Source: Candidatus Gastranaerophilales bacterium
Lineage (GTDB): Bacteria; Cyanobacteriota; Vampirovibrionia; Gastranaerophilales; Gastranaerophilaceae
Assembly: GCA_905235155.1 (NCBI GenBank)
Contig: CAJOKJ010000014.1
Coordinates: 247-64,246 of the forward strand
DNA: 64,000 bases
Direction of reading: 5' to 3'
Shown here: positions 802-52,117 of the stretch, piece by piece
How positions within the stretch are numbered: the stretch's first letter is position 1
How the letters are laid out: each line of letters starts with the position of its first letter
Program-made: the position numbers and the translations under genes
Notes under the pieces: model-generated
Seen by the model: the letters and a program-made list of their open reading frames with translations, nothing else
What the model was told of the DNA's origin: nothing
Databases searched by the model: none

Positions 802-814
802 TAAAGGATTTATT

Positions 815-895
815 ATGATTTACATTAAAAGACCAAATTACAAAAATTCATGTTGCTGTTACAAGAAAATTTATTGTTGTAACGGTAGTTTATGA
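815..895 (+). CDS. Candidate Cys-rich leader peptide, 26 aa (MIYIKRPNYKNSCCCYKKIYCCNGSL)
   Basis: ATG at 815 is preceded by AAGGA (804-808). Five of 26 codons are Cys (851-859 and 875-880). The ORF lies in the 170-nt spacer between cysK and a cysteine-salvage operon, directly upstream of a strong terminator. Confidence 0.35.
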   Translation: MIYIKRPNYKNSCCCYKKIYCCNGSL

Positions 896-921
896 TTTTA
901 TAGATGTAATGTAAATTATTA

Positions 922-959
922 CTCCTGTTATGGCAAATGTTATAACAGGAGTTTTTTTT
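922..959 (+). terminator. Intrinsic terminator / candidate attenuator hairpin
   Basis: Perfect 10-bp stem CTCCTGTTAT / ATAACAGGAG (922-931 / 942-951), extendable by G:U and C:G pairs, followed by T8 (952-959). The SD GGAGG of the next gene starts at 960. Confidence 0.8.
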
Positions 960-972
960 GGAGGATTAAAAA

Positions 973-1869
973 ATGATAGAAACACAAGAAAGTACAACTG
1001 CCAAAATATGTTCATTTGTAAGGGCATATCATGCTAATTTTATTAAAAATAAAATATTTGATGATTATTATGCATTTGAAATAATGGGTAAAGATGAATA
1101 TGAAGAAACGAAAAATTCACTTGTAAAAAAGTTTTTGCCCTGCTATAAATACAAAACTTTAGAAGAAATAAATAATTTATTTTATCCTTTGATAAATAAT
1201 TATTTTGCTCCAATTTTGCTTTCAAGAATTGCATTTGCAGAAAAAGAATTTAAAATATTTTCTTCTATTCATAAAACTTGCCAATATGTAATTTGTGGTG
1301 CAGGTTTAGATACATTTTCGTTGAGAAATGACAATTCAAATGTAAGAATTTTTGAACTTGACCATCCAAGTACTCAAAAATATAAACTAAAACGTATTTA
1401 TGAATTATTATGCAATATTCCGAAAAATACAACTTTTGTTTCTATTGATTTTGAAAAAGAAAAAATGGTCGATGTTTTAATAAAATCAGGATTTAACCCT
1501 GAAATTCCGACATTCTTTTCTATTTTAGGTGTAACTTATTATTTAAGTCTATATACATTTGAACAATCAATAAAAGATATATCTTCTCTTGCGGCAAATG
1601 GAAGCGAAGTTATATATGATTATCCTGATGAAACAACTTTTTCAAAAAAAGCAGCCGGCAGAGTTCAATTTTTAACAAAATTTACTGAAAATTGCGGTGA
1701 AAAAATGAAACATGGGTTTTCTTTTAAAGAAAATTTAAATATTCTTGAAAAATATAATTTTAATGTAATAAAACATCTTTCACCAAATGAAATACAAAAA
1801 CATTTTTTTGAAAATACAGAACAACAGGCTTATGAAAATGTTCATTTTGTAGGTGCTATAAAATATTAA
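973..1869 (+). CDS. Class I SAM-dependent methyltransferase (leucine carboxyl / O-methyltransferase-like family)
   Basis: VICGAGLDTFSLR ... RIFELDHPSTQKYK ... FFSILGVTYYLS pattern matches the LCM/TIGR00027-type SAM-MTases. GGAGG SD lies upstream. Confidence 0.7.
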   Translation: MIETQESTTAKICSFVRAYHANFIKNKIFDDYYAFEIMGKDEYEETKNSLVKKFLPCYKYKTLEEINNLFYPLINNYFAPILLSRIAFAEKEFKIFSSIHKTCQYVICGAGLDTFSLRNDNSNVRIFELDHPSTQKYKLKRIYELLCNIPKNTTFVSIDFEKEKMVDVLIKSGFNPEIPTFFSILGVTYYLSLYTFEQSIKDISSLAANGSEVIYDYPDETTFSKKAAGRVQFLTKFTENCGEKMKHGFSFKENLNILEKYNFNVIKHLSPNEIQKHFFENTEQQAYENVHFVGAIKY

Positions 1870-1888
1870 AAATAATAAAGGAGAAATT

Positions 1889-3034
1889 ATGAAAAATTAC
1901 AAAAATTTTGATTCAGCAGTAATACATGGCGGAATTTTCGGTGATGAAAAAACGGGTGCAGTAAATGTACCAATTTATCAAACATCAACTTACGAACAAG
2001 AAAAATTAGGAAAACACAAAGGATGGGAATATTCCAGAACAGGAAATCCTACAAGGGCAGCTTTGGAAAGTTTAATTGCAGAACTTGAACAAGGTGTTGC
2101 AGGTTTTGCTTTTGCTTCCGGCATGGCTGCTATTACCGCAGTTTTAAGTCTTTTTAAAAGTGGTGACAAAATTATTATTTCAGATAATATTTATGGAGGA
2201 ACTTTTAGAGTTTTAGACAAAGTATTTAACCATTTTAATATTACATACCAAATTGTCGATACAACAAATCTTGAGGCTGTGGAAAATGCTATTACAGATG
2301 ATGTTAAAGCTATTTTTATTGAAACTCCGACAAATCCGCTTTTGCGTGTTACTGATATTAAGGCTATTTCGGATATAGCTAAAAAACATAATATTTTATC
2401 AATAGCCGATAATACATTTATGACACCATATTTGCAACGTCCAATTGAACTTGGCAGCGATATTGTAATCCATAGTGCTACAAAATATCTTGGTGGACAT
2501 AGTGATATTATTGCCGGTCTTGTTGTCGTAAATTCGGAAGAACTTGCAGAAAAAATTGCATTTATCCAAAACTCAACAGGCGGAATTTTACAGCCGTTTG
2601 ATTCTTTTCTATTGATAAGAGGAATTAAAACTCTTGCCGTCAGAATGGACAGACACGTTGAAAATGCTCAAAAAACAGTTGAATATTTAAAAAATAAAGT
2701 CGGGGTTAAAAATATATATTATCCGATTAATAATGAAATAAATAAAAAACAGGCTAAAAATGGCGGTGTTATGCTGTCTTTTGAATTAAATGAGAATTAC
2801 AATGTGGAAAAATTCTTTAATTCTTTAAAATTTATAACTCTTGCGGAAAGTCTTGGCGGTGTGGAATCTCTAGTATGCCACCCCGCATCAATGACACATG
2901 CGTCTATTCCTGCCGACATAAGAAAAAAAGTTGGAATTACAGATAATTTAATACGTCTTTCTGTTGGAATTGAAAATATAAATGATATTCTTGAAGATTT
3001 AGAACAAGCAATTAATGAAAGCGAGGTAAAATAA
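1889..3034 (+). CDS. PLP-dependent trans-sulfuration enzyme (cystathionine gamma-lyase/gamma-synthase/beta-lyase family, MetB/MetC/MccB type)
   Basis: Cys/Met-metabolism PLP family signatures: YSRTGNPT, and HSATKYLGGHSD containing the PLP lysine. Length is 381 aa. Confidence 0.85.
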   Translation: MKNYKNFDSAVIHGGIFGDEKTGAVNVPIYQTSTYEQEKLGKHKGWEYSRTGNPTRAALESLIAELEQGVAGFAFASGMAAITAVLSLFKSGDKIIISDNIYGGTFRVLDKVFNHFNITYQIVDTTNLEAVENAITDDVKAIFIETPTNPLLRVTDIKAISDIAKKHNILSIADNTFMTPYLQRPIELGSDIVIHSATKYLGGHSDIIAGLVVVNSEELAEKIAFIQNSTGGILQPFDSFLLIRGIKTLAVRMDRHVENAQKTVEYLKNKVGVKNIYYPINNEINKKQAKNGGVMLSFELNENYNVEKFFNSLKFITLAESLGGVESLVCHPASMTHASIPADIRKKVGITDNLIRLSVGIENINDILEDLEQAINESEVK

Positions 3035-3945
3035 TGCATTATTACAATTCAATGCAAGATTTAATAGGAAACACACCACTTGTAAAATTAAATTATCTTG
3101 ATTTACCTAAAGAAATAAATTTATTTGCAAAATTAGAATTATATAATCCGTCAGGCAGCGTAAAAGACAGAACAGGTAAATATATGATTGAAAATGCCGA
3201 GAAAAAAGGTATTTTAAAAAAAGGCGGAACAATAATTGAAGCAACAGCAGGAAATACAGGTTTGGGAATTGCTTTTGCCGCTCTAAACAAAGGTTATAAA
3301 ATAATTTTTGTTGTACCCGAAAAATTTTCTCAGGAAAAACAAACTTTAATGCGTGCATTAGGTGCTGAAATTATAAACACCCCGAGAGAAGGCGGAATGT
3401 TAGGTGCTGCTCAAAAAACTCAGGAGCTGATTAAAGAAATACCAAATTCAATTTCACTTGAACAATTTAAAAATCAAAGTAATCCTCTTGCACATTATGA
3501 AACAACAGGCAAAGAAATTTATAATGACCTTGACGGTGATATAGATTATTTAGTAGCAGGTGCAGGAAGCGGTGGAACTTTTAGCGGTGTTGTAAAATAT
3601 TTAAAAGAAAAAAATCCAAACATAAAAGGTGTTCTTGCCGACCCTATCGGCTCTACAATGGGTGGTGGAAAACATGCAGATTATAATATTGAAGGTATTG
3701 GAAATGATTTTATTGCTGATACAATGGATATGTCACTTGTAGACAAAGTTATAAAAATAAGTGATAATGAAGCATTTGAATGGGCTAACAAATTAGCTTT
3801 AAAAGAAGGTATTTTTGCAGGTTCATCATCAGGTGCTGCAATAGCTGCCGCAAAAAAATTAACAGATACAGGCGTAAAAGGCAATATTGTTGTTATTTTA
3901 CCGGATAGAGGCGATAGATATTTTAGTAAACATTTGTATAATTAA
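3034..3945 (+). CDS. Cysteine synthase / cystathionine beta-synthase family PLP enzyme (CysK/CysM/MccA type)
   Basis: NPSGSVKDR PLP-lysine motif, GNTGLGIA, GAGSGGTFSG. Start overlaps the stop of the upstream gene (ATAATG), suggesting translational coupling. Confidence 0.85.
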   Translation: MHYYNSMQDLIGNTPLVKLNYLDLPKEINLFAKLELYNPSGSVKDRTGKYMIENAEKKGILKKGGTIIEATAGNTGLGIAFAALNKGYKIIFVVPEKFSQEKQTLMRALGAEIINTPREGGMLGAAQKTQELIKEIPNSISLEQFKNQSNPLAHYETTGKEIYNDLDGDIDYLVAGAGSGGTFSGVVKYLKEKNPNIKGVLADPIGSTMGGGKHADYNIEGIGNDFIADTMDMSLVDKVIKISDNEAFEWANKLALKEGIFAGSSSGAAIAAAKKLTDTGVKGNIVVILPDRGDRYFSKHLYN

Positions 3946-36970: not shown

Positions 36971-38125
36971 TTATATATTTAAATCTTTCATAACTTCACT
37001 TATCATATAAAGTGAACCGCATATTACTGTAATTCCGTTAAAATCAGGTAATTTGCCATTAAATTCTTTTGACGGATATTTGCATGCAGAAGATAATTCT
37101 TCATAAGTTGCAGAGTTTTGATGATTAAAATGATTAAAATATATTTCATCATCTTCTTTAAAAAGAAGGTTTATCATTTCGGGATAATTTTTGTTTCTTA
37201 AACAGCCAAAAATAAACCTTTTATTAATATTTTTAAAATAAATATCAAGATTTTCTCTTAACACCTTTATACCGTTTGGGTTATGTCCTCCATCAATTAA
37301 TATTTTTTTATCTTCAAAATATTCAAATCGACCGTGATGAACAACGTGTTTTAATGCTTTTTGGATAATATTTCTATCTAAATTAGGCAATAATGTATCA
37401 ACCACAGTCAATGCAAGATTAAGATTTTCTTTCTGATAATTTCCTTTTAAGCTAACATCTGTATAATTAAAATTTTTTGCCAAATACAATTGCTCACTAT
37501 TTGTATGCGACTTAATAACTTCAAAACCTTTATTGTTTTTATCAACAACAACCGGACAATAAGGTTTTATAATACCGCTTTTTTCTTCTGCAATTTTTTC
37601 TATCGTATCGCCTAAACGTTCTGTATGGTCAAGATCAATAGTTGTTATAACAGAACATATAGGATTTTTAATAACATTAGTGGAATCGTATTTTCCGCCC
37701 AAACCAACTTCTATAACAGCATAATCAACATTGTTTTCAGCAAAATATTCATACATAACAGCAGTTAATATTTCAAATTCTGTCAAATGAAGGTTATTTT
37801 TTTCTGATAAATCTTGTATTTTGAATATTTTTTCTGCAAAAATATCTGTTGGAATTTCTTTTTCGTTAATTTTTATACGTTCTGTATATCTAAAAAGATG
37901 AGGACTTGTAAAAAGTCCTGTTTTAAATCCTGCTTCTGTCAATATCGTACTTATAAATGCACAAACAGAACCTTTGCCGTTAGTTCCTGCAACATGAATA
38001 CATTTTAATCTGTCTTGCGGATTGTTTATTATTTTTAAAATAGCAAAAATTCTTTCCAGACCTAAATTTATATAAAATTTATCTTGAGAAGTTAATAATT
38101 TTACTGCTTTTTCATAATTATTCAT
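36971..38125 (-). CDS. folC: Folylpolyglutamate synthase / dihydrofolate synthase
   Basis: Mur-ligase fold P-loop HVAGTNGKGSV, with DYAVIEVGLGGKYDSTN. Confidence 0.85.
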   Translation of the reverse strand: MNNYEKAVKLLTSQDKFYINLGLERIFAILKIINNPQDRLKCIHVAGTNGKGSVCAFISTILTEAGFKTGLFTSPHLFRYTERIKINEKEIPTDIFAEKIFKIQDLSEKNNLHLTEFEILTAVMYEYFAENNVDYAVIEVGLGGKYDSTNVIKNPICSVITTIDLDHTERLGDTIEKIAEEKSGIIKPYCPVVVDKNNKGFEVIKSHTNSEQLYLAKNFNYTDVSLKGNYQKENLNLALTVVDTLLPNLDRNIIQKALKHVVHHGRFEYFEDKKILIDGGHNPNGIKVLRENLDIYFKNINKRFIFGCLRNKNYPEMINLLFKEDDEIYFNHFNHQNSATYEELSSACKYPSKEFNGKLPDFNGITVICGSLYMISEVMKDLNI

Positions 38126-39251: not shown

Positions 39252-40440
39252 TTGATTTAACCCTTATTTTTTTTACACGTTTTTTTGATATATTTAATAA
39301 AACACCTATCATCCAAAGTGATACCATTAATGATGAACCGCCATAACTTATGAAAGGAAGCGGAACACCTGTTGCCGGTAAAAATGAAGTTGCAACCGAA
39401 ATATTTAAAAAGGCTTGAAAACCTATTGAAAAAGTTATTCCGACAGCAAGTAATTTACCGTACATATCGGGACAACGAGAAGCTATTATTAATCCTCTGT
39501 GAATTAATGTCCAAAATAATCCTATAACAAGAATACAACCAACCCAGCCTAATTCTTCACCAATAACTGCATAAATAAAGTCTGTATGTGATTCAGGAAG
39601 CCAATATAATTTTTGTTTTGAATTTCCAAATCCTACACCCCAGAAATTTCCTGTCGCAAATGCTGTTAATGCTTGTATAATTTGGTAGCCTGATGTTAAA
39701 GCGTATTGTTCGGGATTTAACCATGTTGTTATACGAGTTAGCTGATATGGTTTAATTATAAAAGATAACCCGTTAAGTGCCGTTGTAATCATTGTTACAC
39801 CAAAAGCAAAACCTGCTGTACCAAGTGTTATTACTAATTTTAAAGGTCCGCCTGCACTTAACCACATGATTAAAGAGGTCATTCCCAGCAAAATAACCAT
39901 ACTTAAGTTAGGTTGTTTGAAAATTAATCCAAGCATTATAAAGACGGGTAAAAAATATACAGACCACTTGCTTGCATCTCTTATTTTTGCATTTTTGTAA
40001 AATGCACTTGACATTAAAAGTACGACCGCAAATTTTGCAAATTCGGAAGGCTGTAAATTTGTAAATCCTATATTTAACCACCGTCTTGATTCATTTACTG
40101 TTACTCCGAGAGGTGTAAATGCAACCAGCAATAAACCTACAATAACTGCAATTGTTATTGGCATTGTCCATAGTACAAGATTTTTATAATCGTAATTTAT
40201 AAAAAATTTCATGCCTATAATGCCGATTACAAGAAAAAATAATTGAAATAGTGCAAAGCGTGCAGGATTTTGACCTAATTCCATACATTTAGGGGCACTT
40301 GCAGAAAATATTGAAATTATGCCTATTGTAATCAAAAACGCAACAACCACCATCACTGTCCTATCCGGCGGTGTTAAAATAATACTTTGTCTTGGTGTAT
40401 ATGGAATATTTTTTTCAGGATTATACTTTTGATAAGACAT
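39235..40440 (-). CDS. ftsW: SEDS-family peptidoglycan glycosyltransferase FtsW/RodA/SpoVE
   Basis: 10-TM SEDS pattern, ...PESHTDFIYAVIGEELG..., ...PLPFISYGGSS.... Start trimmed to MSYQKYN (40440), overlapping the murD stop by 20 nt. Confidence 0.88.
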   Translation of the reverse strand: MSYQKYNPEKNIPYTPRQSIILTPPDRTVMVVVAFLITIGIISIFSASAPKCMELGQNPARFALFQLFFLVIGIIGMKFFINYDYKNLVLWTMPITIAVIVGLLLVAFTPLGVTVNESRRWLNIGFTNLQPSEFAKFAVVLLMSSAFYKNAKIRDASKWSVYFLPVFIMLGLIFKQPNLSMVILLGMTSLIMWLSAGGPLKLVITLGTAGFAFGVTMITTALNGLSFIIKPYQLTRITTWLNPEQYALTSGYQIIQALTAFATGNFWGVGFGNSKQKLYWLPESHTDFIYAVIGEELGWVGCILVIGLFWTLIHRGLIIASRCPDMYGKLLAVGITFSIGFQAFLNISVATSFLPATGVPLPFISYGGSSLMVSLWMIGVLLNISKKRVKKIRVKSNVRFL

Positions 40441-41773
40441 ATTCTTTAAATATTTTTCCTCGTTCTTCGTAACCGCTGAACATATCAAAACTTGCACAAG
40501 CAGGTGAAAGTAGTACTACATCAGGATTTAAAGATAGACCCTTATCAATTGCACTTTGCAATGTTTCTTCAAAAATTATATGTTCAAATCCGTTTTGTTT
40601 TAAATTTTCTTCAAAACGTTTTCCTGCTTCACCAATTAGGACAACTGTCTTGACGTGATTTTTAACAGCTTCGCAAAATTCTTTTAAATCAGTATTTTTA
40701 TCTCTGCCACCTGCAATTAATACAACATTTTTGTCGTTAAACGAATTAATTGCAACTATTGCAGATTCAGGATTTGTTGCTTTTGAATCATTATAAAATT
40801 CGGTATTACCGACTTTAGTAACATATTCAAGTCTGTGTTCAGGAACTTTAAAAGACATTATTGCTTTTCTAATATTTTCATTAGAAACACCTTCTATTTT
40901 GGCAACAATTATCGAACACATTACATTTTGGTAATTATGATGACCAATTAAAGGACATTCTTCAAGCGTTATTATTTCCTCTGTTTTACCTTTTCTTGTA
41001 AAATAAATTTTTCCGTCTTCTATGTAGCAGCAATTGTCTTCAACTTTTTTGTCAAATAAAAATACATTTGAAACACAAGTTTTTGAAAATTCTAATAATT
41101 TTTCATCATTACCATTAAATACAGCAAAAGCAGGTAATTGAGGAAATTTAAATATTTTTGCTTTTGCATTAAAATAATTTTCTAAACCTTCATGCCAGTC
41201 AATATGGTCAGGAGTAAAGTTTGTCCAACAAGCAATTTGAGGTTGGAAAGAATTACTTGTTTCAAGTTGAAATGAACTTACCTCGCAAACAAAATAATCT
41301 AATTCGTTATCACTTAACAATTCACAAGGTGGAACTCCGTAATTTCCGCAAGGTTCTGCTTTATATTCCTCATTTAAAATATGTGCAGTAAGAGCAACCG
41401 TTGTTGTTTTACCGTTAGTACCGGTTATTGCAATAAATGGTTTTCTGCTTTCTGAATATGCAAGTTCAATTTCTGATATAACAGGAACATTTGCTTCTTT
41501 TAATCGTTTAAATATTTCATTTTTCGGTGGAATACCCGGACTTGTAACTGCAAGATAACTGTCATTTATAAATTCGTCAGAATGACCGCCCATTTCTACT
41601 TTTATATCAAAACTTTTTAATTCTTCAATTAAATCTTTATCTTCAGACTTTTCTTCTCGGCTTTCTGTTATATAAACATTAGCACATTTACTGCTTAAAT
41701 ACTTTGCAGCTGCAATACCGCTTTTTGATAATCCCAATATCAAAACTTTTTTATCATACCAATTTTTCTTCAT
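40421..41773 (-). CDS. murD: UDP-N-acetylmuramoylalanine--D-glutamate ligase
   Basis: VLILGLSKSGIAAAKYL Rossmann start, ITGTNGKTTT P-loop, dcw context. Confidence 0.92.
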   Translation of the reverse strand: MKKNWYDKKVLILGLSKSGIAAAKYLSSKCANVYITESREEKSEDKDLIEELKSFDIKVEMGGHSDEFINDSYLAVTSPGIPPKNEIFKRLKEANVPVISEIELAYSESRKPFIAITGTNGKTTTVALTAHILNEEYKAEPCGNYGVPPCELLSDNELDYFVCEVSSFQLETSNSFQPQIACWTNFTPDHIDWHEGLENYFNAKAKIFKFPQLPAFAVFNGNDEKLLEFSKTCVSNVFLFDKKVEDNCCYIEDGKIYFTRKGKTEEIITLEECPLIGHHNYQNVMCSIIVAKIEGVSNENIRKAIMSFKVPEHRLEYVTKVGNTEFYNDSKATNPESAIVAINSFNDKNVVLIAGGRDKNTDLKEFCEAVKNHVKTVVLIGEAGKRFEENLKQNGFEHIIFEETLQSAIDKGLSLNPDVVLLSPACASFDMFSGYEERGKIFKEYVLSKV

Positions 41774-42753
41774 TAGATTAATCCTTTAAAATATAAACAA
41801 AATAATACGACAGAAATTATTGAAAATAAAGTTGAAACGAGTGCAAAAGTTATTACAATTTTATTTTCACTCCAGCCTAAAAGTTCAAAATGATGGTGAA
41901 TTGGAGCCATTTTAAAGACTCTTTTTCCGGTTAATTTAAAACTTGTAACCTGAATAATAACAGATAATGTTTCACAGATGAATACCATTGCAATTAAAAC
42001 AAGTAATAATTCAAATTTGCCCATAATTGCAACTGTTCCAAGTAAGCCGCCCAAAGCAAGAGAACCTGTATCACCCATAAATACTTGTGCTTTTGATTTA
42101 TTATATTTTAGAAAGCCTACCAATGCTCCTGCGGTTGCTGCTGAAATTATTGAAACAGATGTATAACCGCTTAATCCTGCAACTACTGCACAAGCCAAAA
42201 ATGAAGGAATACCGCAACTTGATGCTAAACCGTCAAGTCCGTCTGTCAAATTGAAAGCATTTGATGCTCCGATTATTATAAAAACGGCAAATACAGGATA
42301 AAACCACATTAAATCAATGTAATGATATGCAAAAGATATTCTTGTAAACTGTTCTCCGCATAAAACTATAAATATAGCCGGTAATAATGCAATAACGATT
42401 TGTCTTATTAATTTTCCTCTTGGTGTTAAACCTTGATTTTCATGACCTTTCAATTTTAAATAGTCATCTTGAAAACCTGCTAAAGTATAGAAAAATAATG
42501 TTATTAGCGTTATAAATCCAAATGAATTAAGTTGTTGTGCCAGTGCCAGTACAATAATTGAAGCTAAAATTATTGCTGCAATTATAAAAACACCACCTGT
42601 TGTTGGAGTACCCTGTTTTTGTTTGTGTGCTTCCGGTGCTAAATCAAGAACATATTGTCCGATAGTTTTTTTCTTTAAAAAATCTATATACGGAACACCA
42701 AACAACAAGCATAAAATTAATCCCAAAATAAATGCTATTGTTGTCATTATCAT
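41773..42753 (-). CDS. mraY: Phospho-N-acetylmuramoyl-pentapeptide transferase
   Basis: GFQDDYLK, NAFNLTDGLDGLA, FMGDTGSLALGG, APIHHHFE motifs. Confidence 0.95.
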   Translation of the reverse strand: MIMTTIAFILGLILCLLFGVPYIDFLKKKTIGQYVLDLAPEAHKQKQGTPTTGGVFIIAAIILASIIVLALAQQLNSFGFITLITLFFYTLAGFQDDYLKLKGHENQGLTPRGKLIRQIVIALLPAIFIVLCGEQFTRISFAYHYIDLMWFYPVFAVFIIIGASNAFNLTDGLDGLASSCGIPSFLACAVVAGLSGYTSVSIISAATAGALVGFLKYNKSKAQVFMGDTGSLALGGLLGTVAIMGKFELLLVLIAMVFICETLSVIIQVTSFKLTGKRVFKMAPIHHHFELLGWSENKIVITFALVSTLFSIISVVLFCLYFKGLI

Positions 42754-44096
42754 AAGTTTTCTCCTTTCAGCCCGTTGAAAATTTCTTCAAATTTCATTGA
42801 ACGAGATGCCTTTAGAAATATTGTTTTATCTTTTTCAATATTATTTTTTATATATTCAACCGCTTGAGAATTTTCTTCAAAGGAAACTGCAAACATTCCT
42901 TTTTCTTTAACTGTTTCAGCAATTTCTTTTGCAAGATTTCCAACAGTAATTATTTTAACATGATTATTTTCATCAAGTTTATCTAAGATAAAATCACCAA
43001 TTTGCTTGTGATAAAAAATTTCATCCTGTCCTAATTCGCCCATATTACCTAAAACAAGCACAGAATTAGGATATAATTCCAAAACTGTTGATAATGCGGC
43101 TTTCATAGAATCAGGATTTGCGTTATAAGCATCATTTATAACTTTATAACCGCTAACATCTTCTATTTGCCAGCGTTTTTCAATAGGCATATAAATTTTT
43201 AAACCATCATTTATTTTTTCAGGTGTAATACCAAGTTTCAAACCTGCTTCAATTACAGCAAGTGAATTTTCCACATTATAATCACCTTCTATATTAAGTT
43301 GATAATTTTCATCTTTATAAGAAAATTTTGTTTTACCTATTTGCTTTTCTTGAAAGTCAACATCTTTTATAGAAAAATATATCTTTTCTCCGTTAAATTC
43401 AACTGTTTTTTTTATTAAATCGCTATCGTGGGCGATAAATGTACCATTAGGTTTTTGATATTTACAAATTTCGCATTTCGCTTTTGCAATATTTTCTCTG
43501 CTTCCCAAACGTCCGATATGAGAAGTTCCGACATTTGTAATAATTGTTATATCAGGATTTGAATACTTTGAGAGTAATTCAATTTCGCCTAAACCTCTCA
43601 TACCCATTTCAAGAATTAGAACTTGAGTATCTTTCGGCATTGAAAGTATTGTCTGGCATGTTCCGACTTCGTTATTGTGATTTAGAGGGGTTGAGAATGT
43701 TCTGAATTGTTGTTTACAAACACATGTCAGCATTTCTTTTGTAGTAGTTTTGCCTGAACTTCCTGTCAGAGCAATAACTTTTGGTGAAATTTTATTTAAA
43801 CATAATTTTGCGAGTTGCAAATATGCAATTATTGGATTTTCAATTTGTAAAACCAAATCTGCACCGTCTAAAACTGTGCCTTGAGTTGTAAAATATGCTT
43901 TTGCACCTGCTTCTATTGCCTTTGGTATAAATTTTTCACCGTCAAAATTTTCTCCCTTCAAGCCGATATAAACATTTTCGTAATTAATTGTTCTGGTATC
44001 GGTTGAAATAGAGAATTTTTTACCTTGAGCGTTATTTTTTAAAATCTTTGCATTTGTTGCAAATATCAGTTCTTCTGTCGTGAAATTCATATTCAA
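42750..44096 (-). CDS. murF: UDP-N-acetylmuramoyl-tripeptide--D-alanyl-D-alanine ligase
   Basis: LTGSSGKTTTKEM P-loop, DAYNANPDSM, dcw context. Confidence 0.9.
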   Translation of the reverse strand: MNMNFTTEELIFATNAKILKNNAQGKKFSISTDTRTINYENVYIGLKGENFDGEKFIPKAIEAGAKAYFTTQGTVLDGADLVLQIENPIIAYLQLAKLCLNKISPKVIALTGSSGKTTTKEMLTCVCKQQFRTFSTPLNHNNEVGTCQTILSMPKDTQVLILEMGMRGLGEIELLSKYSNPDITIITNVGTSHIGRLGSRENIAKAKCEICKYQKPNGTFIAHDSDLIKKTVEFNGEKIYFSIKDVDFQEKQIGKTKFSYKDENYQLNIEGDYNVENSLAVIEAGLKLGITPEKINDGLKIYMPIEKRWQIEDVSGYKVINDAYNANPDSMKAALSTVLELYPNSVLVLGNMGELGQDEIFYHKQIGDFILDKLDENNHVKIITVGNLAKEIAETVKEKGMFAVSFEENSQAVEYIKNNIEKDKTIFLKASRSMKFEEIFNGLKGENL

Positions 44097-44099
44097 ACC

Positions 44100-44942
44100 T
44101 TATGCTTGAGTTAAATCATCTAAGAATGTCGGAAGTGCAAATCTTGCCATGTGATAATCTTTGTTATAGATTTTGCATTGTTTTGTAATTTCTTCGCAAC
44201 GTTTTTCATCAATATATGACAACGGTTCAACCGTTTCGGAACAAAATGCCCAAGCCCAGTATCCACCGGGGTATGTTGGTATTGGTGATGTATAACTGCT
44301 TACTATTGGGAATACTTTTTTAAGTAAACTGTACATGTGTTTAATTTCATCTTCGTTTGCAACAGGACTTTCTGATTGTGCAACCATTATGCCGCCTTTT
44401 TTCAAAGATTCTTTTACATTTGTATAAAATTCTTCGGTAAATAATCCGACACCGGGTCCCATAGGGTCTGTTGAGTCAATTAAAATTATATCAAACATAT
44501 CTTTTTTATCTTTGATATATTCAATTGCGTCTTCAACTTTTATTTCAACTTTTGGATTATCAAGTTCACAAGCTATTGTTGGCAAATATTTTTTTGAAAC
44601 TTCTATAACCATATCGCAAAGAACAACTTTTTCAACAGTTTTGTGTTTCAAAACTTCTCTAACCGTACCGCCGTCACCGCCACCAATTACAAGAACTGTT
44701 TTAGGGCAAGGGTGGTTCATCATTGGAATATGAGCAATCATTTCGTGATAAAAATATTCATCGCCTTCCGTTGCCATCATTAAATCATCAAGTGTTAAGA
44801 TTTTACCTAATTTTGAATCTGATTGTAAAATTTCAACTTTTTGATATTTTGAATATTCCGAAAATAAAACTTCTTTTAGCTTGATAGCAATACCAAAACC
44901 TGAAGGTGTTATTTCTTTATAATATAATTCTTCTTCTGCCAC
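44100..44942 (-). CDS. Spermidine-synthase-family (aminopropyltransferase-fold) protein, paralog 1
   Basis: GGGDGGTVRE and IDSTDPMGPG are canonical, but the dcSAM-ribose-binding loop is 3 aa short (VVLCDM---VIEVSKKYLP versus the usual C-E-I-D-x-x-V). Stop lies 3 nt before the murF start. Confidence 0.8.
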   Translation of the reverse strand: MAEEELYYKEITPSGFGIAIKLKEVLFSEYSKYQKVEILQSDSKLGKILTLDDLMMATEGDEYFYHEMIAHIPMMNHPCPKTVLVIGGGDGGTVREVLKHKTVEKVVLCDMVIEVSKKYLPTIACELDNPKVEIKVEDAIEYIKDKKDMFDIILIDSTDPMGPGVGLFTEEFYTNVKESLKKGGIMVAQSESPVANEDEIKHMYSLLKKVFPIVSSYTSPIPTYPGGYWAWAFCSETVEPLSYIDEKRCEEITKQCKIYNKDYHMARFALPTFLDDLTQA

Positions 44943-44959
44943 TTTTTATTTTCCTTTCT

Positions 44960-45805
44960 TTATATTAAATCGTCTAATAGTGTTTCTTGTTCTAATCTTT
45001 GTTCTGCGTATTTTTTTGTAAATAATTTACAGTTTTTAACTACATCTTCATATCTTTGTTCATCATAATTATCAAGCGGATTTACGTTATCCGAGCAAAA
45101 TACCCAAGCCCAACAGCTTCCGGGATATGTTGGTACGGGTGAAGTATATGTTTTTACTATTTCAAAATTTTTCAATAAACTTTCATATAAAGTTTTGCTT
45201 TTTTGTTCATTAGCAACAGGACTTTCCGATTGCATTACAATAATACCGTCTTCATTCAAAAGTCTTTTTAAATTTTGATAAACTTCGCTTGTATATTCGC
45301 CAACCCCAGGACCTAAAGGGTCTGGAGAAGTTATAAGAATAACATCAAATTTTTTGTCTGTTTGTTTTATATAATCAAAAGCATCCGTTATTTCAACTTT
45401 AACTCTTTGGTCATTTAGGCAACCTGCAATGTTAGGTAAGTATTCTTTGCAAGTATTTACAACAACTTCATCAATATCAACGACTACAACATGTTCTACC
45501 GATTTATGTTTTAGAATTTCCTTTGTTGCTGCTCCTGTTCCGCCACCGATAATTAGGATGTTTCGGGGGTTTTTGTGGCTTAGTAAAGGTAAGTGCGTAA
45601 TCATTTCGTTGTAGTGATAAGCATCACCTTCTGTTACAAACATCAAATCATTAAGAGTTAATATTCTACCCAAAGAAGAGTCTGTTTCAAGCACTTCTAC
45701 CTTCTGGTATTTTGACTGTGTGGAAAATAAAATCTTTTTAATTTTAATGGCAATACCAAAACCTGAAGGTGTTATTTCTCTGTAATAATTTTGTTCATCT
45801 ACCAT
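44960..45805 (-). CDS. Spermidine-synthase-family protein, paralog 2 (catalytic Asp residues substituted)
   Basis: Same fold and length as paralog 1, but GGGDGG is GGGTGA and D-S-x-D-P is T-S-P-D-P. The VDIDEVV loop is intact. Confidence 0.75.
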   Translation of the reverse strand: MVDEQNYYREITPSGFGIAIKIKKILFSTQSKYQKVEVLETDSSLGRILTLNDLMFVTEGDAYHYNEMITHLPLLSHKNPRNILIIGGGTGAATKEILKHKSVEHVVVVDIDEVVVNTCKEYLPNIAGCLNDQRVKVEITDAFDYIKQTDKKFDVILITSPDPLGPGVGEYTSEVYQNLKRLLNEDGIIVMQSESPVANEQKSKTLYESLLKNFEIVKTYTSPVPTYPGSCWAWVFCSDNVNPLDNYDEQRYEDVVKNCKLFTKKYAEQRLEQETLLDDLI

Positions 45806-45811
45806 AATTAA

Positions 45812-46141
45812 TTATCCTAATTTTTCGGTTAATTTACCCGATAAAATATGTACGTGTAAATGGAAAACAGTTTGACCTGCACCTGTACCTGTGTTCATAA
45901 TCGTTCTGTAATCAGTTAAACCAAGCTTATTTGCGGTTGCTTTTACACCTTTTAGCAATTTTACCATAAGTTCTTCATCTTCCAATTCTGCAAGTGATGC
46001 AACATGAGTTTTTGGAATTACAAGAACGTGAGTATCTGCTTGAGGATGAAGGTCATTAATTGCAATTACGGCATCGTCCTCATATACAAATTTACTTGGT
46101 ATTTCTTTATTAATTATTTTACAAAAAATGCAATCACTCAT
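45812..46141 (-). CDS. HIT-family (histidine triad) nucleotide hydrolase
   Basis: CIFCKII ... HLHVHIL triad. Start overlaps the proS stop (TAATG). Confidence 0.9.
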   Translation of the reverse strand: MSDCIFCKIINKEIPSKFVYEDDAVIAINDLHPQADTHVLVIPKTHVASLAELEDEELMVKLLKGVKATANKLGLTDYRTIMNTGTGAGQTVFHLHVHILSGKLTEKLG

Positions 46142-47877
46142 TACATTGCTTCCTTTATCATTTTAATAACTTTTTCTACGGCCTCGTCGGGTTTAATTGT
46201 TTCAATTTCACCTGTTGCACGTGTTTTTAATTCAACATTACCGTCTACAATAGTTTTACCTACTGTAATTCTGTATGGAAAACCAATTAAATCAGCATCT
46301 TTGAATTTTACACCCGGTCTTTCATCTCTGTCATCAATAACAACTTCAATGCCTGCATTTAAAAGTTTGATATAGATATCCTTCGCAGTATTCATTTGAA
46401 GTTCGTCTTTATTATTCAAAGGTACTATTGTAACGTGATATGGTGCAATTTGTACAGGCCACATAATACCGTTGTCATCATGATATCTTTCAACTGCTGC
46501 GGCTGCGGTTCTTGAAATACCTATGCCGTAACATCCCATTACGTAAGGCTGAGCCTTGCCGTTTTGGTCTAAATATACTGCATTCATTGGTTTTGAATAT
46601 TTTGTACCTAATTTGAAAATATTACCAACCTCAATACCTCTTGTAACTTTTAGTGGTTTTCCGCATTGAGGACATAATTCATCTTTTTGAACAAGACGAA
46701 TATCATAATATTCTTCTATTGCAGGTATATCAGATAAATTTGCACCAACCATGTGTTTGTCTTCTTGATTTACACCAACTACAAAGTTTTTTAAATCTTT
46801 TACCGTATTATCAGCAATGATTGTAATACCTTCCATTCCTTTTGGTCCGATAAATCCTTTTGCGGCATTGAAACCTTTTTGAACCATTAATTCTTCAATT
46901 TCTGCGGCTGATGCAATTCTAATATCAATTCCGCCAACTGCATTCATTAATTTTGTTTCTTCTACTTCTTTATCTGCTCTGATTAAGGCTAATACAGGCT
47001 TTTTATCAACAATATAAACCAAACATTTTAAAATAACTGTTGAAGGTATTTTCAAAAATTCACAAAGTTCTTCTATTGAATGTGTTTGAGGAGTGTCAAT
47101 TACCTTTGTTTCATTAAAACCAAATTTGCTTCCGTCAGTATCTGCTTCAGGAAGATTTGAAATTGCGTGATTTGAATTTGCACTGTAATCACAATCATCA
47201 CAATAGAAAACGTCATTTTCGCCTGCATCTGTTGTTGTAATTACCATAAATTCGTGGCTTACACTTCCACCGATTGCACCTGAATCAGATTGAACCATTT
47301 TTGTTTCAAGTCCGCATCTTTTGAAAATATTTGTGTATGCTTTAGCCATGTCTTGATATGATTTTTCAAGACCTTCTTCGTTTAAATCAAAGCTATAAGC
47401 GTCTTTCATAATAAATTCACGACCTCTTAAAAGTCCGTATCTCGGACGAACTTCATCTCTAAACTTGTCTTGAATTTGATATAAATTACAAGGTAATTGT
47501 TTATATGATTTTAAACCGTCACGTGCAATTGAAGTTATTACTTCTTCTGCTGTTGGCCCTAAGCACATTTCTCTATCATGTCTGTCACGTAAACGCATTA
47601 ATTCTTTGCCGTAAACTTCCCAACGACCTGATTCTTCCCAAAGTTCTTTTGGTTGAACAAACGGAGTTAAAAGCTCTTGAGCTCCTGCTTCATCCATTTC
47701 TTCACGTACAATGTTTTCAATTTTCTTTAAAACACGCCACATCAAAGGTAAGTAATTATAACATCCGCTTGTTAATTTTCTGATGTAACCTGCTCTTGCT
47801 AAAAATTTATGTGAAACAACATCTGCATCAGCAGGAAATTCACGTAATGTTTGTACAAACAATTTTGACATTTTCAT
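46141..47877 (-). CDS. proS: Proline--tRNA ligase (bacterial type with INS editing domain)
   Basis: Class II aaRS motifs (FRDEVRPRYGLLRGREF, GCYGIGISR). 578 aa. Confidence 0.93.
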   Translation of the reverse strand: MKMSKLFVQTLREFPADADVVSHKFLARAGYIRKLTSGCYNYLPLMWRVLKKIENIVREEMDEAGAQELLTPFVQPKELWEESGRWEVYGKELMRLRDRHDREMCLGPTAEEVITSIARDGLKSYKQLPCNLYQIQDKFRDEVRPRYGLLRGREFIMKDAYSFDLNEEGLEKSYQDMAKAYTNIFKRCGLETKMVQSDSGAIGGSVSHEFMVITTTDAGENDVFYCDDCDYSANSNHAISNLPEADTDGSKFGFNETKVIDTPQTHSIEELCEFLKIPSTVILKCLVYIVDKKPVLALIRADKEVEETKLMNAVGGIDIRIASAAEIEELMVQKGFNAAKGFIGPKGMEGITIIADNTVKDLKNFVVGVNQEDKHMVGANLSDIPAIEEYYDIRLVQKDELCPQCGKPLKVTRGIEVGNIFKLGTKYSKPMNAVYLDQNGKAQPYVMGCYGIGISRTAAAAVERYHDDNGIMWPVQIAPYHVTIVPLNNKDELQMNTAKDIYIKLLNAGIEVVIDDRDERPGVKFKDADLIGFPYRITVGKTIVDGNVELKTRATGEIETIKPDEAVEKVIKMIKEAM

Positions 47878-47937
47878 AATTCATCTTCCTCACTTTTAAA
47901 AAAATTTTATCACAAAAAAGTAAGAAATACACTTATT

Positions 47938-48882
47938 TTAAATATTTTTTGGTAAAGTATTTTGTAATTCAATGCTGACTTCTTTCGGAGTCATTGAAAG
48001 TGTTTCGTGATTTTGCATTGCTTGTTCCATGCATTGTTTATATTCTGCCCAAATTTGCAAATGTTTTAGCACTTGTGCCATTACGTAATACAAATCTCCG
48101 TTATCGGAAATTTCTTGTAATGCCGTTTGCATTACGTGTAGTGCTTCTTCGTAACGTTCGGATTTACACAATATTTGAGCAACTATTTTATATGCTTCAA
48201 TATCTCTGGGATTATATTGAAGTGTTTGTTTTAAATATTCTAAAGCACTATTAAAATCGCCTTGAGAGTACGCTATTGAACCTAAATTAAAATATGCCCA
48301 ACTATAATTTGGTGATTGTTCGATAACTTTTTTATATTCTGCAATTGCTTCAGGTATTTTACCTTCATTTCTGTATATATATCCAAGATGAAAATGTGCA
48401 AAAATGTCATTACTGTTAAGCTGTACTGCTTTCAAAAAACAAACTTTTGCAATTTCAGGTTGTTCTTTTTTTACATAGCATAAACCTAAATTAAAATAAC
48501 TGTTTGAATCATCAACATCTGTTTCAAGTACTATTTTAAATTGCTCAATAGCCTTGTCAAATTCACGCATGTCAATATATACAAGACCTAAGTTATAATA
48601 AAAATCGGTTTCGTTAGGAGATAATTCAATTGCTTTTAAATATGATTCTTCTGCGTGAGGAAGATCACGCATTTTTTCATATACAATACCTTTGTTATAA
48701 TACAGACTTGCATCCTGTGGAAAAATGCTTATTAAAAATTGAAATTGCTTTAAAGATTCTTCATTAAAACCTTTATCAAGCAATACAACCGCCAAACGAC
48801 GTCTTGCCTGAAAGTTTGATGAATCTTCACGCAATATAGCCTGTAATTCTTCTATTTCTTGTATATCTTGGTCATCTGCCAT
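47938..48882 (-). CDS. TPR-repeat protein
   Basis: At least seven consecutive 34-aa TPR units (YYNLGLVY.., A...F..A..L.P). Confidence 0.75.
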   Translation of the reverse strand: MADDQDIQEIEELQAILREDSSNFQARRRLAVVLLDKGFNEESLKQFQFLISIFPQDASLYYNKGIVYEKMRDLPHAEESYLKAIELSPNETDFYYNLGLVYIDMREFDKAIEQFKIVLETDVDDSNSYFNLGLCYVKKEQPEIAKVCFLKAVQLNSNDIFAHFHLGYIYRNEGKIPEAIAEYKKVIEQSPNYSWAYFNLGSIAYSQGDFNSALEYLKQTLQYNPRDIEAYKIVAQILCKSERYEEALHVMQTALQEISDNGDLYYVMAQVLKHLQIWAEYKQCMEQAMQNHETLSMTPKEVSIELQNTLPKNI

Positions 48883-48932
48883 ATTAACATTATAAACGTA
48901 AATCTATTTAGTGCAAAGTTGTAAAATTATTG

Positions 48933-51448: not shown

Positions 51449-52117
51449 TTATTCGCAACTTGTTTTAGTTTCCCAATTAATTACTTTAGGACATTTTTTG
51501 TAATCCATATTTTTATTAACTAAAATCCATGCCGTACATGCAAACCCACCTTCATTTAAACAATTATCAAATGGAACAATTCTATCTTGAGGACCACCCA
51601 TTGGTATTAAGCCTTTTTGTGTTGTGTAAAATCCAAATTGGTCAATGCCCGGTTTATTAGAGCCGTTTATTCCGTCTATATCAATATACGTTGCACCTGT
51701 TATGCGATTGTTTCTGTCAACGGAATCAACTTCACCTCTAAAATCATCATTTACAAGTATTCCTGCTCCACTTATTAATCTTAATTTATAACCTTTCAAT
51801 TCGTTTGTTTCAAAACAACCTTCTTCATTTAAGTTACAGTCTTTAATTGTTTTTAATGTTGAATTTAACAATTTATAAAATTGTTCTGCATTCATTGATT
51901 TATCAACAGATGCATATTCTAAACCACCTACATCTAAGCCCAAAATTTTAGTTATAATAAGTGTGTTTTCTATTTTTTGATATGTTTTTTCAAGCATTTC
52001 CGAATATGCCCTATCACGATTAGTTGTAACGACAGTCGGAATCGTAAGCATGGCAAGCACGGCAACAATAGTCATTACAACCAACATTTCCGCTAAAGTA
52101 AAACTTTTTAACTTCAT
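51449..52117 (-). CDS. Type IV pilin-like / pseudopilin protein (paralog of 6463-7269)
   Basis: MKLKS/FTLAEMLVVMTIVAVLAMLTIP. The C-terminal IDIDGINGSNKPGIDQFGF and ACTAWILVNKNMDY motifs parallel VDVNGPKKGLHKLGDDIFAF and YCTAWAIKFGNIDY in the other copy. Confidence 0.75.
   Translation of the reverse strand: MKLKSFTLAEMLVVMTIVAVLAMLTIPTVVTTNRDRAYSEMLEKTYQKIENTLIITKILGLDVGGLEYASVDKSMNAEQFYKLLNSTLKTIKDCNLNEEGCFETNELKGYKLRLISGAGILVNDDFRGEVDSVDRNNRITGATYIDIDGINGSNKPGIDQFGFYTTQKGLIPMGGPQDRIVPFDNCLNEGGFACTAWILVNKNMDYKKCPKVINWETKTSCE

What the first reader, a model, noticed from the sequence alone, without database searches (positions are those of the whole stretch)
44100..45805. Tandem speE-like paralogs, each missing different canonical aminopropyltransferase residues, wired directly into the murF-mraY-murD-ftsW-murG operon
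Two 280-aa spermidine-synthase-fold genes lie head-to-tail with a 17-nt gap, and the second-transcribed one stops 3 nt before murF.

Paralog 1 (44100-44942) keeps GGGDGG and IDSTDP. However, the loop that normally reads C-E-I-D-x-x-V, whose acidic residue binds the dcSAM ribose, is three residues shorter (VVLCDMVIEVSKKYLP).

Paralog 2 (44960-45805) keeps that loop (VVVDIDEVVV). It has GGGTGA instead of GGGDGG and ITSPDP instead of (I/V)D(S/C)xDP. It therefore lacks both Asp residues (equivalents of human SpdS Asp104 and Asp173, numbering from memory) that hold the aminopropyl amine and deprotonate the acceptor. Loss of the GGGDGG Asp is what accompanies the switch from dcSAM to SAM in plant putrescine N-methyltransferases.

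Paralog 2 may therefore be a methyltransferase, a pseudo-enzyme partner, or one half of a heterodimer with complementary sites. No speD/speH is in the window. The position in front of the peptidoglycan-precursor genes, in a genome that also encodes an SLH-domain envelope protein, raises another possibility. The pair could make or modify a polyamine destined for the cell wall, since polyamine-linked peptidoglycan anchors SLH proteins in Negativicutes.
Basis: partly seen in the sequence, partly recalled or inferred. Interest (0 to 1): 0.65.

Follow-up and report, generated by a model that had tools for sequence, protein, structure and literature searches.

The report
Spermidine synthase plus remodelled, non-aminopropyl paralog
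A gut Melainabacteria genome carries an ordinary spermidine-synthase gene preceded by a conserved duplicate that has lost the residues needed for that reaction; the duplicate probably does something new (binds SAM or regulates its partner), while the link to cell-wall genes and the "defect" in the ordinary copy are local accidents.

Summary
The two SpeE-fold genes, the spacings and the motifs are real.

1. The 3-residue gap in paralog 1 comes from a 9-nt deletion found only in this window. Contigs from three public runs that are otherwise identical or nearly so, a more divergent contig from a fourth, all related species and the 97%-identical protein all read C-E-I-D-x-M. Paralog 1 is an ordinary polyamine aminopropyltransferase.

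2. The murF adjacency holds only in some close relatives. Elsewhere other genes follow. The conserved order is (proS)-HIT-par2-par1.

3. SpeE active sites lie within one subunit, so "complementary half-sites" is unlikely.

What is real and apparently undescribed is paralog 2. It belongs to a single clade (bootstrap 100) that arose by duplication inside Gastranaerophilales and is found in 26 species genomes. It is under purifying selection as strong as the canonical enzyme (dN/dS 0.02-0.12). Its changes are fixed: D101T, E121D, T172P, D170T/S/C (T. maritima numbering). It has a full SpeE fold (pLDDT 92) but cannot be an aminopropyltransferase.

My best guess is a SAM-binding transferase, analogous to plant PMT/SMT. 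A prozyme-like non-catalytic partner is nearly as likely. The function is untested.

The parts
44960..45805 (-). par2: SpeE-fold paralog with a remodelled cofactor and catalytic site (GGGTGA, VDIDE, TSPDP). Not an aminopropyltransferase.
   Evidence: Clade-wide conservation.
45530..45547 (-). GGGTGA, replacing the canonical GGGDGG. Thr90 sits at T. maritima Asp101 / human Asp104.
   Evidence: Thr is invariant in all 61 par2-type sequences.
45317..45331 (-). TSPDP, replacing the canonical DSTDP. Thr159 sits at the catalytic base (Tm Asp170 / human Asp173). Asp162 (Tm Asp173) is kept.
44100..44942 (-). par1: canonical polyamine aminopropyltransferase (speE), apart from a private 9-nt deletion.
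44613..44615 (-). Junction codon (GAT, Asp110) of the 9-nt deletion. Public contigs carry AATTGACAA between 44614 and 44613, which gives C-E-I-D-N-M.
45812..46141 (-). HIT-family (HinT-like) gene, the conserved upstream neighbour of speE/par2 in Gastranaerophilales.
46141..47877 (-). proS. It overlaps the HIT start by 1 nt and belongs to the conserved TPR-proS-HIT-par2-par1 order.
42750..44096 (-). murF (likely start at ATG 44090), first gene of murF-mraY-murD-ftsW-murG. The adjacency to par1 is lineage-specific.

Best explanation
The locus is a two-gene module of gut Melainabacteria (order Gastranaerophilales). The ancestral arrangement was HIT-speE. A tandem duplication produced HIT-par2-par1.

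par1 stayed a canonical dcSAM-dependent polyamine aminopropyltransferase. In par2, the sub-pocket that holds the aminopropyl amine and deprotonates the acceptor was rebuilt on the stem of the clade. The changes, in T. maritima numbering, are D63N, D101T, G103A, R106K, E121D, D170T/S/C and T172P. The adenosine-binding residues, the gate-keeping loop and most diamine-pocket residues were kept.

Shown: single origin, strong purifying selection, SpeE fold, and loss of two of the three catalytic Asp (all three in one subclade). Hence par2 has no aminopropyltransferase chemistry.

Inferred: the acidic residues were replaced by hydroxyl or amide side chains, and the sequence drifted towards generic class-I methyltransferase motifs. 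This suggests par2 now binds SAM rather than dcSAM and transfers a methyl (or other SAM-derived) group, most plausibly to a polyamine made or used by par1. That would be a bacterial, independently evolved analogue of plant putrescine and spermidine N-methyltransferases.

The tight junction to murF and the 3-residue gap in par1 are accidents of this genome or assembly.

Confidence differs by layer. The evolutionary and structural part is about 0.9. The SAM-transferase function is about 0.4, and that is the figure given.
For: - Single clade, bootstrap 100, nested in canonical Gastranaerophilales SpeE, with a long stem.
- Present in 26 GTDB species genomes, all Melainabacteria-type loci.
- dN/dS is 0.02-0.115 for par2 against 0.02-0.17 for par1.
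- Thr90, Asp110 and Pro161 are invariant. Position 159 is only T, S or C.
- Asp to Thr needs two nucleotide changes, which argues for selection towards a hydroxyl rather than simple loss (direct from the genetic code).
- Every par2-type cluster carries precomputed Methyltransf_31/25/12 hits, while canonical ones essentially do not (one outgroup, P0101, does). Window par2 scores 41.8 bits on Methyltransf_31 (cut-off 27) and 30.0 on Methyltransf_25 (cut-off 27); par1 has no such hit.
- NCBI already names one member a "methyltransferase domain-containing protein".
- AF2 gives pLDDT 91.9 and pTM 0.91, with TM about 0.9 to SpeE structures.
- Pocket positions have 0.10 bits of entropy, against 0.62 for the rest of par2.
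- Nine species have HIT-par2 with no adjacent par1 and no remnant of it, and the gene is still under dN/dS 0.03-0.08.
- Precedent: D103I alone abolishes SPDS activity and creates PMT activity, and in the PMT model Thr side chains hydrogen-bond the SAM carboxylate (PMC3725402). SpeE-derived spermidine N-methyltransferases exist in coca (PMC9894180).
Against: - Plant PMT keeps the Asp equivalent to Tm Asp170. par2 has lost it, so there is no obvious general base.
- One subclade (TPNP/TPTP) has also lost the diamine-anchoring Asp173, including members that sit in tandem with par1. That weakens a polyamine acceptor.
- No ligand-binding or activity data exist.
- My list of pocket positions was drawn from memory and partly from conserved columns, so the entropy contrast is biased upwards.
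- Strict adjacency to par1 with 9-30 nt spacers fits a protein partner equally well.
- Whether the nine "solo" genomes hold a speE elsewhere could not be checked.
Confidence: 0.4

Rival explanations
1. par2 is a catalytically dead, ligand-binding partner ("prozyme-like"). It forms hetero-dimers or hetero-tetramers with par1 and tunes par1's activity or stability, as the dead paralogs of AdoMetDC and deoxyhypusine synthase do in trypanosomatids.
For: - The order par2 then par1 is constant, with 9-30 nt spacers, in 17 GTDB species loci plus L040/L041.
- SpeE enzymes are obligate dimers or tetramers built from their N- and C-terminal regions (PMC10146546).
- The N-terminal oligomerisation domain is the most similar part of the two paralogs, 58-81% against 49-58% in the core.
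- An unrelated 588-aa protein, P0212, fuses a canonical SpeE to a degenerate SpeE domain. Canonical-plus-dead SpeE pairs therefore recur.
- Precedent in the same pathway: PMC5201418 and PMC6221367.
Against: - par1 shows no acceleration or loss that would make it dependent on a partner (short branches, canonical motifs).
- Nine species keep par2 with no adjacent par1.
- The substituted positions are fixed to hydroxyl residues and the pocket is the most conserved part, which is more than a scaffold needs.
- The high N-terminal similarity is general to the order, not specific to pairs, and there is no gene conversion.
Confidence: 0.3
2. par2 uses SAM in the dcSAM pose and transfers the 3-amino-3-carboxypropyl group, giving for example carboxyspermidine. 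Or it acts on a non-polyamine acceptor.
For: Removing both Asp residues that would repel the SAM carboxylate, while keeping the SpeE geometry, would favour this pose (inference). No AdoMetDC gene was seen in the window or in 660 kb of related loci.
Against: The general base is gone. A canonical dcSAM enzyme sits next door. No carboxyspermidine decarboxylase was seen near any locus. The 660 kb covers only speE neighbourhoods, so the absence of speH there means little.
Confidence: 0.1
3. The two paralogs have complementary defects and act as one heterodimeric enzyme, and/or they make a polyamine destined for peptidoglycan, co-ordinated with murF-mraY-murD.
For: In the window the genes are packed with 3-17 nt gaps, and there is no terminator-like site on the minus strand between proS and murD. 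An SLH protein is present.
Against: The par1 defect is absent from contigs of the same or near-identical sequence in public runs and from all relatives. The SpeE active site is intra-subunit. The murF linkage is not conserved. A CsaB-like pyruvyl transferase in a relative points to the usual SLH ligand. From memory, known polyamine-to-peptidoglycan linkage uses a different enzyme type.
Confidence: 0.04
4. par2 is a decaying duplicate with no function.
For: It has lost catalytic residues and evolves up to about 2 to 4 times faster than par1 in amino-acid terms in some pairs.
Against: It is intact in 26 species. dN/dS is 0.02-0.12 with saturated dS. It has invariant motifs and a confident fold.
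Confidence: 0.02

Closest known systems
Canonical spermidine synthase / polyamine aminopropyltransferase SpeE (e.g. B. subtilis 1IY9, T. maritima 1INL/1JQ3, human 2O06)
   Same: Both paralogs share the two-domain fold, the Pfam and NCBIfam matches, the gate-keeping loop, the ribose and adenine contacts, and Tyr76/Tyr239. par1 also shares all three catalytic Asp.
   Different: par2 has Thr at Asp101, Thr/Ser/Cys at Asp170, Asp at Glu121 and Pro at Thr172. One subclade also has Asn/Thr at Asp173. HMM cut-offs would still mislabel par2 as SpeE.
Plant putrescine N-methyltransferase (PMT) and Erythroxylum spermidine N-methyltransferases (SMT/SPMT), SAM-dependent enzymes derived from SPDS
   Same: They descend from a duplicated spermidine synthase. 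They lose the GGGDGG Asp. They change the residue after the conserved Tyr (Q79T in PMT; His to Asn/Ser here), creating hydroxyl-lined space for the SAM carboxylate.
   Different: par2 has an independent, bacterial origin. PMT has Ile rather than Thr at the Asp position and keeps the second Asp (Tm Asp170), which par2 lacks. The V106T change is absent from par2 (Ala). No activity is known for par2.
Trypanosomatid AdoMetDC prozyme (and the DHS dead paralog)
   Same: A paralog of a polyamine-pathway enzyme that has lost catalytic residues yet is conserved. It could act through hetero-oligomerisation.
   Different: In trypanosomes the active paralog is crippled on its own, whereas par1 looks fully canonical. 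No complex has been shown. par2 persists without an adjacent par1 in nine species.
P0212, a fused canonical-plus-degenerate double SpeE from JGI metagenomes (L038/L039)
   Same: It pairs a canonical SpeE with a SpeE-fold module lacking the catalytic Asp, in a polyamine context (a GSP_synth-like neighbour).
   Different: It is a separate lineage. Its degenerate half has also lost the gate-keeping loop (GNGGGG, no DSTDP), so it looks truly dead. The domain order is canonical first.

Membership tests
Polyamine aminopropyltransferase (SpeE), applied to par2 | SpeE two-domain fold and family HMMs (PF01564, PF17284, TIGR00417/NF002010) | tested here: met
   (281.4 bits against a cut-off of 260; 268.4 against 249.55). 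(TM about 0.9 to 1IY9 and 1INL).
Polyamine aminopropyltransferase (SpeE), applied to par2 | The Asp of GGGDGG, which holds the aminopropyl amine of dcSAM and excludes SAM | tested here: not met
   Thr90, invariant in the clade. D103I/D101I abolishes or cripples SPDS activity (PMC3725402).
Polyamine aminopropyltransferase (SpeE), applied to par2 | The catalytic base Asp (Tm Asp170 / human Asp173) | tested here: not met
   Thr159 in the window and T/S/C across the clade. Role of this Asp: PMC12812037 and PMC10146546.
Polyamine aminopropyltransferase (SpeE), applied to par2 | The diamine-anchoring Asp (Tm Asp173 / human Asp176) | tested here: met
   Asp162 in the window and in all SPDP-type members. 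It is replaced by Asn/Thr in the TPNP/TPTP subclade.
Polyamine aminopropyltransferase (SpeE), applied to par1 | All three Asp, the ribose-binding acid, and the family HMMs | tested here: met
   The window copy lacks the EID tripeptide, but the junction recreates an Asp, and the public contigs carry CEIDN. Activity was not tested.
SpeE-derived SAM-dependent N-methyltransferases (PMT/SMT type) | Loss of the GGGDGG Asp plus polar replacements lining the methionine sub-pocket | tested here: met
   D101T, H77N/S, D170T/S, compared with D103I, Q79T, V106T.
SpeE-derived SAM-dependent N-methyltransferases (PMT/SMT type) | Retention of the second Asp (Ds D173), which binds the SAM amino group and the acceptor amine | tested here: not met
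SpeE-derived SAM-dependent N-methyltransferases (PMT/SMT type) | Descent from the plant PMT/SMT clades | tested here: not met
   par2 is nested within Gastranaerophilales SpeE. Any likeness is convergent.
SpeE-derived SAM-dependent N-methyltransferases (PMT/SMT type) | SAM-dependent methyl transfer to a polyamine | not testable with these tools
   Needs an enzyme assay.
Pseudoenzyme partner (prozyme-like) | A paralog of an active enzyme that lacks catalytic residues and is kept by purifying selection | tested here: met
Pseudoenzyme partner (prozyme-like) | A physical complex with the active paralog and an effect on its activity | not testable with these tools
   No multimer prediction or biochemistry was available. 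Adjacency is suggestive only.

The most novel reading that the evidence does not exclude
par2 is the first bacterial example of a spermidine synthase turned into a SAM-dependent transferase. With its neighbour par1 it would make an N-methylated (or otherwise SAM-alkylated) polyamine specific to gut Melainabacteria. This would be an independent replay of the SPDS-to-PMT/SMT transition known only from plants, using a different residue solution: Thr/Thr instead of Ile plus a retained Asp.
Probability: 0.3. Interest if true: 0.7.

Novelty: new variant of a known kind. Interest (0 to 1): 0.45.

Why it matters
Automated annotation would call both genes "polyamine aminopropyltransferase", because par2 passes the NCBIfam equivalog cut-offs. 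That call is almost certainly wrong for par2.

The clade is a clean, natural case of active-site remodelling after tandem duplication in an uncultured, host-associated phylum. If par2 is a methyltransferase, it predicts an unrecognised modified polyamine in animal and human gut ecosystems, and it offers a second, independent route from dcSAM to SAM use in this fold. If par2 is a regulatory dead paralog, it extends the "prozyme" principle of polyamine control from trypanosomes to bacteria.

The finding does not open a link between polyamines and peptidoglycan synthesis.

Tried and rejected
- RNA evidence for co-transcription. Four RNA-seq runs suggested by the run finder gave zero reads on 40400-48900. 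Only the tight spacing and the lack of a terminator-like site support an operon.
- AdoMetDC search. A speH processing-site motif scan found nothing in the window or in 660 kb of related loci. Pfam annotation of about 47 window proteins found no other polyamine gene. This says nothing about the rest of the genome.
- Gene conversion between the paralogs. Rejected, because within-genome identity equals between-genome identity.
- Remnant of par1 downstream of the solo par2 genes. None was found, even at E = 10.
- C-terminal (dimerisation-helix) changes in par2 as a sign of heteromer adaptation. Dropped after L040/L041 showed that the subclade keeping the canonical C-terminus also occurs in tandem with par1.
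- Literature. No paper was found on a bacterial SpeE paralog lacking the catalytic Asp, or on Gastranaerophilales polyamine genes.
- Whether the nine "solo" genomes hold speE elsewhere.
- Hetero- versus homo-oligomer prediction. Not possible, because only single chains can be folded here.
Full report
**1. Observation**

The window has about 30% G+C. On the minus strand, the region reads proS (46141-47877), a HIT-family gene (45812-46141), paralog 2 (par2, 44960-45805), paralog 1 (par1, 44100-44942), then murF-mraY-murD-ftsW-murG.
- The gaps are 6, 17 and 3 nt (9 nt if murF starts at the ATG at 44090). Each downstream start is preceded by an AGGA-like ribosome-binding site.
- No terminator-like site lies on this strand between proS and murD.
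- The two SpeE-like proteins are 54% identical. Both match PF01564 and PF17284 and exceed the NCBIfam speE equivalog cut-offs.
- In alignments to solved structures, par2 has Thr at T. maritima Asp101 (human Asp104) and at Asp170 (human Asp173). It keeps Asp173 (human Asp176) and has Asp for the ribose-binding Glu121.
- par1 has every canonical residue but lacks three residues after strand beta-2.

**2. The par1 gap is private to this window**

- The nearest database protein (P0047, 97% identical) is 283 aa and reads CEIDD.
- Every related locus reads TGY GAA ATH GAY xxx ATG.
- Contigs of three public runs (X1-X3) match the window exactly over the 501 bases around the site. Over 3.5 kb, X1 shows no other difference and X2 and X3 show a few substitutions.
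- All three carry nine extra bases between 44613 and 44614, at depths 78x, 204x and 5.6x. These restore C-E-I-D-N-M.
- A fourth run (X4) has a more divergent contig that also carries a 9-nt insert.
- The deletion junction recreates an Asp codon.

The deletion is a rare variant or an assembly artefact. The idea that each paralog lacks a different part of the site fails for the gene family. It is also structurally unlikely, because the SpeE active site lies within one monomer, between the N-terminal and core domains (PMC12812037).

**3. par2 is a conserved clade, not a one-off**

- A search with par2 found 38 clusters with GGGTG[AST], VDID[ED] and I[TSC][ST]P[DNT]P. Behind them came the canonical Gastranaerophilales SpeE proteins with GGGDGG, CEID and IDSTDP.
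- A scan of one genome per GTDB species found par2-type genes in 26 species. All are Melainabacteria/Gastranaerophilales-type loci, although some bins are mislabelled.
- In a neighbour-joining tree, all par2-type proteins form one clade with bootstrap 100. The clade is nested within the order's canonical SpeE and sits on a long stem.
- Pairwise dN/dS is 0.02-0.115 for par2, against 0.02-0.17 for par1 in the same genome pairs.
- Against 1.84 billion cluster representatives, only one par2-type representative appears among the top 150 hits, so the clade is narrow.

**4. Context**

- Canonical single speE genes of the order sit directly after the HIT gene.
- Seventeen of the species loci have par2 immediately followed by par1, with 9-30 nt spacers. 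In fifteen of them the HIT gene, usually preceded by TPR-proS, lies directly upstream; L001/L025 lack it.
- murF follows directly only in the window and in L007, the closest species (94% identical). It follows after a 70-370 nt gap in seven species.
- In L010 and L014 about 3 kb separate par1 from murF. In L010, the one inspected, they hold a glycosidase-like gene on the opposite strand.
- murF is replaced by unrelated genes elsewhere: ALGX/MBOAT in L005, and TatA-PGM-pheT in L001. In L012 the next genes are on the opposite strand (prfB and metG by my reading of the translations).
- A subclade with TPNP/TPTP has lost the third Asp as well. It occurs both in tandem with a canonical par1 (L040, L041) and, in nine species, as HIT-par2 alone, with no remnant of par1 downstream.

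The tandem pair is therefore ancestral. The HIT linkage is conserved, and the mur linkage is local.

**5. What changed in par2**

Columns at least 90% conserved in canonical SpeE, but fixed to another residue in par2, fall into three groups (T. maritima numbering).

| Group | Changes |
|---|---|
| All par2 | D63N, D101T, G103A, R106K, E121D, T172P, D170 to T/S/C |
| SPDP subclade only | E73A, L182E, F183Y, F187V, G242S and four C-terminal positions |
| TPNP subclade only | D173N/T |

Retained and invariant are Gln46, Tyr76, Glu78, the Gly loop, Ile-Asp after the ribose acid, the Ala after the adenine-contacting Asp/Asn, the whole P-x-P-L-G-P-G gate-keeping loop, Gln/Glu in QSE, and T-Y-P and the Trp.

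Active-site positions have far lower entropy than the rest of the protein (0.10 against 0.62 bits). My position list came from memory and partly from conserved columns, so this contrast is inflated.

The AF2 model is confident (pLDDT 91.9, pTM 0.91). It dips only in the gate-keeping loop, and it superposes on SpeE structures at TM about 0.9.

**6. Mechanism**

Three published roles bear on this (PMC10146546 and PMC12812037):
- Asp101 captures the aminopropyl amine.
- Asp170 deprotonates the attacking amine.
- Asp173 anchors the far end of the diamine.

D103I alone abolishes SPDS activity (PMC3725402). par2 therefore cannot be an aminopropyltransferase. This conclusion is strong.

What par2 does instead is inference. 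Several points favour a SAM-using transferase:
- The acids that bind the aminopropyl amine and repel the SAM carboxylate are replaced specifically by hydroxyl or amide residues. Asp to Thr needs two nucleotide steps, and Thr90 is invariant.
- In the PMT model, Thr side chains hydrogen-bond the SAM carboxylate.
- Every par2-type cluster, and only one canonical one, picks up generic class-I methyltransferase Pfam hits. These are above the cut-off for Methyltransf_31 and Methyltransf_25 in the window protein.
- The family has repeatedly produced SAM-dependent N-methyltransferases in plants.
- par2 persists without an adjacent par1 in nine species.

Two points count against it:
- PMT keeps the Asp170 equivalent, and par2 has no obvious base.
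- The TPNP subclade has lost the diamine anchor.

The main rival is a non-catalytic, ligand-binding partner of par1. It is supported by the invariant order and spacing, the oligomeric nature of SpeE, the trypanosomatid prozyme precedent, and an unrelated fused canonical-plus-degenerate double SpeE (P0212).

I put the transferase reading at about 0.4 and the partner reading at about 0.3.

**7. Peptidoglycan idea**

Nothing beyond the local adjacency supports it:
- The window has no other polyamine gene.
- The mur linkage is not conserved.
- A relative carries a CsaB-like pyruvyl transferase, which fits the usual SLH ligand.
- From memory, the polyamine-peptidoglycan linkage of Negativicutes is made by a different kind of enzyme.

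**8. Verdict**

par1 is an ordinary speE, with a private 9-nt deletion in this assembly. par2 is a real, conserved and apparently undescribed SpeE-derived paralog whose chemistry has changed. It is a new variant of a known kind, of moderate interest.

Noticed in passing
window 44613-44615 (minus strand): A 9-nt in-frame deletion relative to contigs of public runs X1-X3, which are otherwise identical or nearly so. The window differs from X1 by nothing else over 3.5 kb, so the window's source assembly or strain carries a private indel inside speE.
   Followed up: yes
L038 8001-9767 (also L039 6419-8185): A 588-aa protein (P0212) from JGI metagenomes fuses a canonical SpeE (GGGDGG, DSTDP) to a degenerate SpeE domain (GNGGGG, gate-keeping loop missing). 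It lies downstream of a glutathionylspermidine-synthase-like gene.
   Followed up: partly
L035 9950-10831; L033, L034: An independent SpeE-like protein in a Lentisphaeria MAG and two UMGS genomes, 29% identical to par2. It has GGGTGA, keeps the ribose Glu, and has VESAQL instead of DSTDP. A gene I read as a cation-diffusion-facilitator type follows it.
   Followed up: no
window 45812-46141; L003, L005, L036, L037, L040, L041: A HinT-like HIT gene lies immediately upstream of speE or par2 in nearly all Gastranaerophilales loci seen (not in L001/L025). The reason for the linkage is unknown.
   Followed up: partly
L003 14279-15298: A PS_pyruv_trans (CsaB-like) gene lies near the solo par2 of a relative. 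It is relevant to how SLH-domain proteins are anchored in this phylum.
   Followed up: no
window 36971-38125 (minus strand): A short (384 aa) Mur-ligase-like protein directly after murG, with only weak Mur_ligase_M/C scores and no N-terminal domain hit. It may not be a standard MurC.
   Followed up: no
window 51449-52117 (minus strand): A 222-aa protein with a prepilin-type N-terminus (KSFTLAEMLVVMTIVAVLA) and no Pfam hit.
   Followed up: no
window 28-3945 (plus strand): A cluster of PLP enzymes (PALP, Cys_Met_Meta_PP, PALP) with a leucine-carboxyl-methyltransferase-family gene (973-1869) inserted between them.
   Followed up: no
window 10984-13929 versus L005 14962-17922: A GGGtGRT protein, a 233-aa unknown and an NTP-transferase lie 30 kb from the speE pair in the window, but 3 kb downstream of it in L005. 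The genome has been rearranged around the pair.
   Followed up: no
L011, L014, L015, L022, L024, L032 (record titles): GTDB/GenBank records carrying these Gastranaerophilales-type loci are labelled Muribaculaceae, Alistipes senegalensis, Eubacteriales, Anaerovoracaceae or Methanobacteriaceae. The bins are probably mislabelled or contaminated.
   Followed up: no
L019 4650-5985: murF matches in two overlapping pieces in different frames, so that MAG has a frameshift or an assembly error.
   Followed up: no
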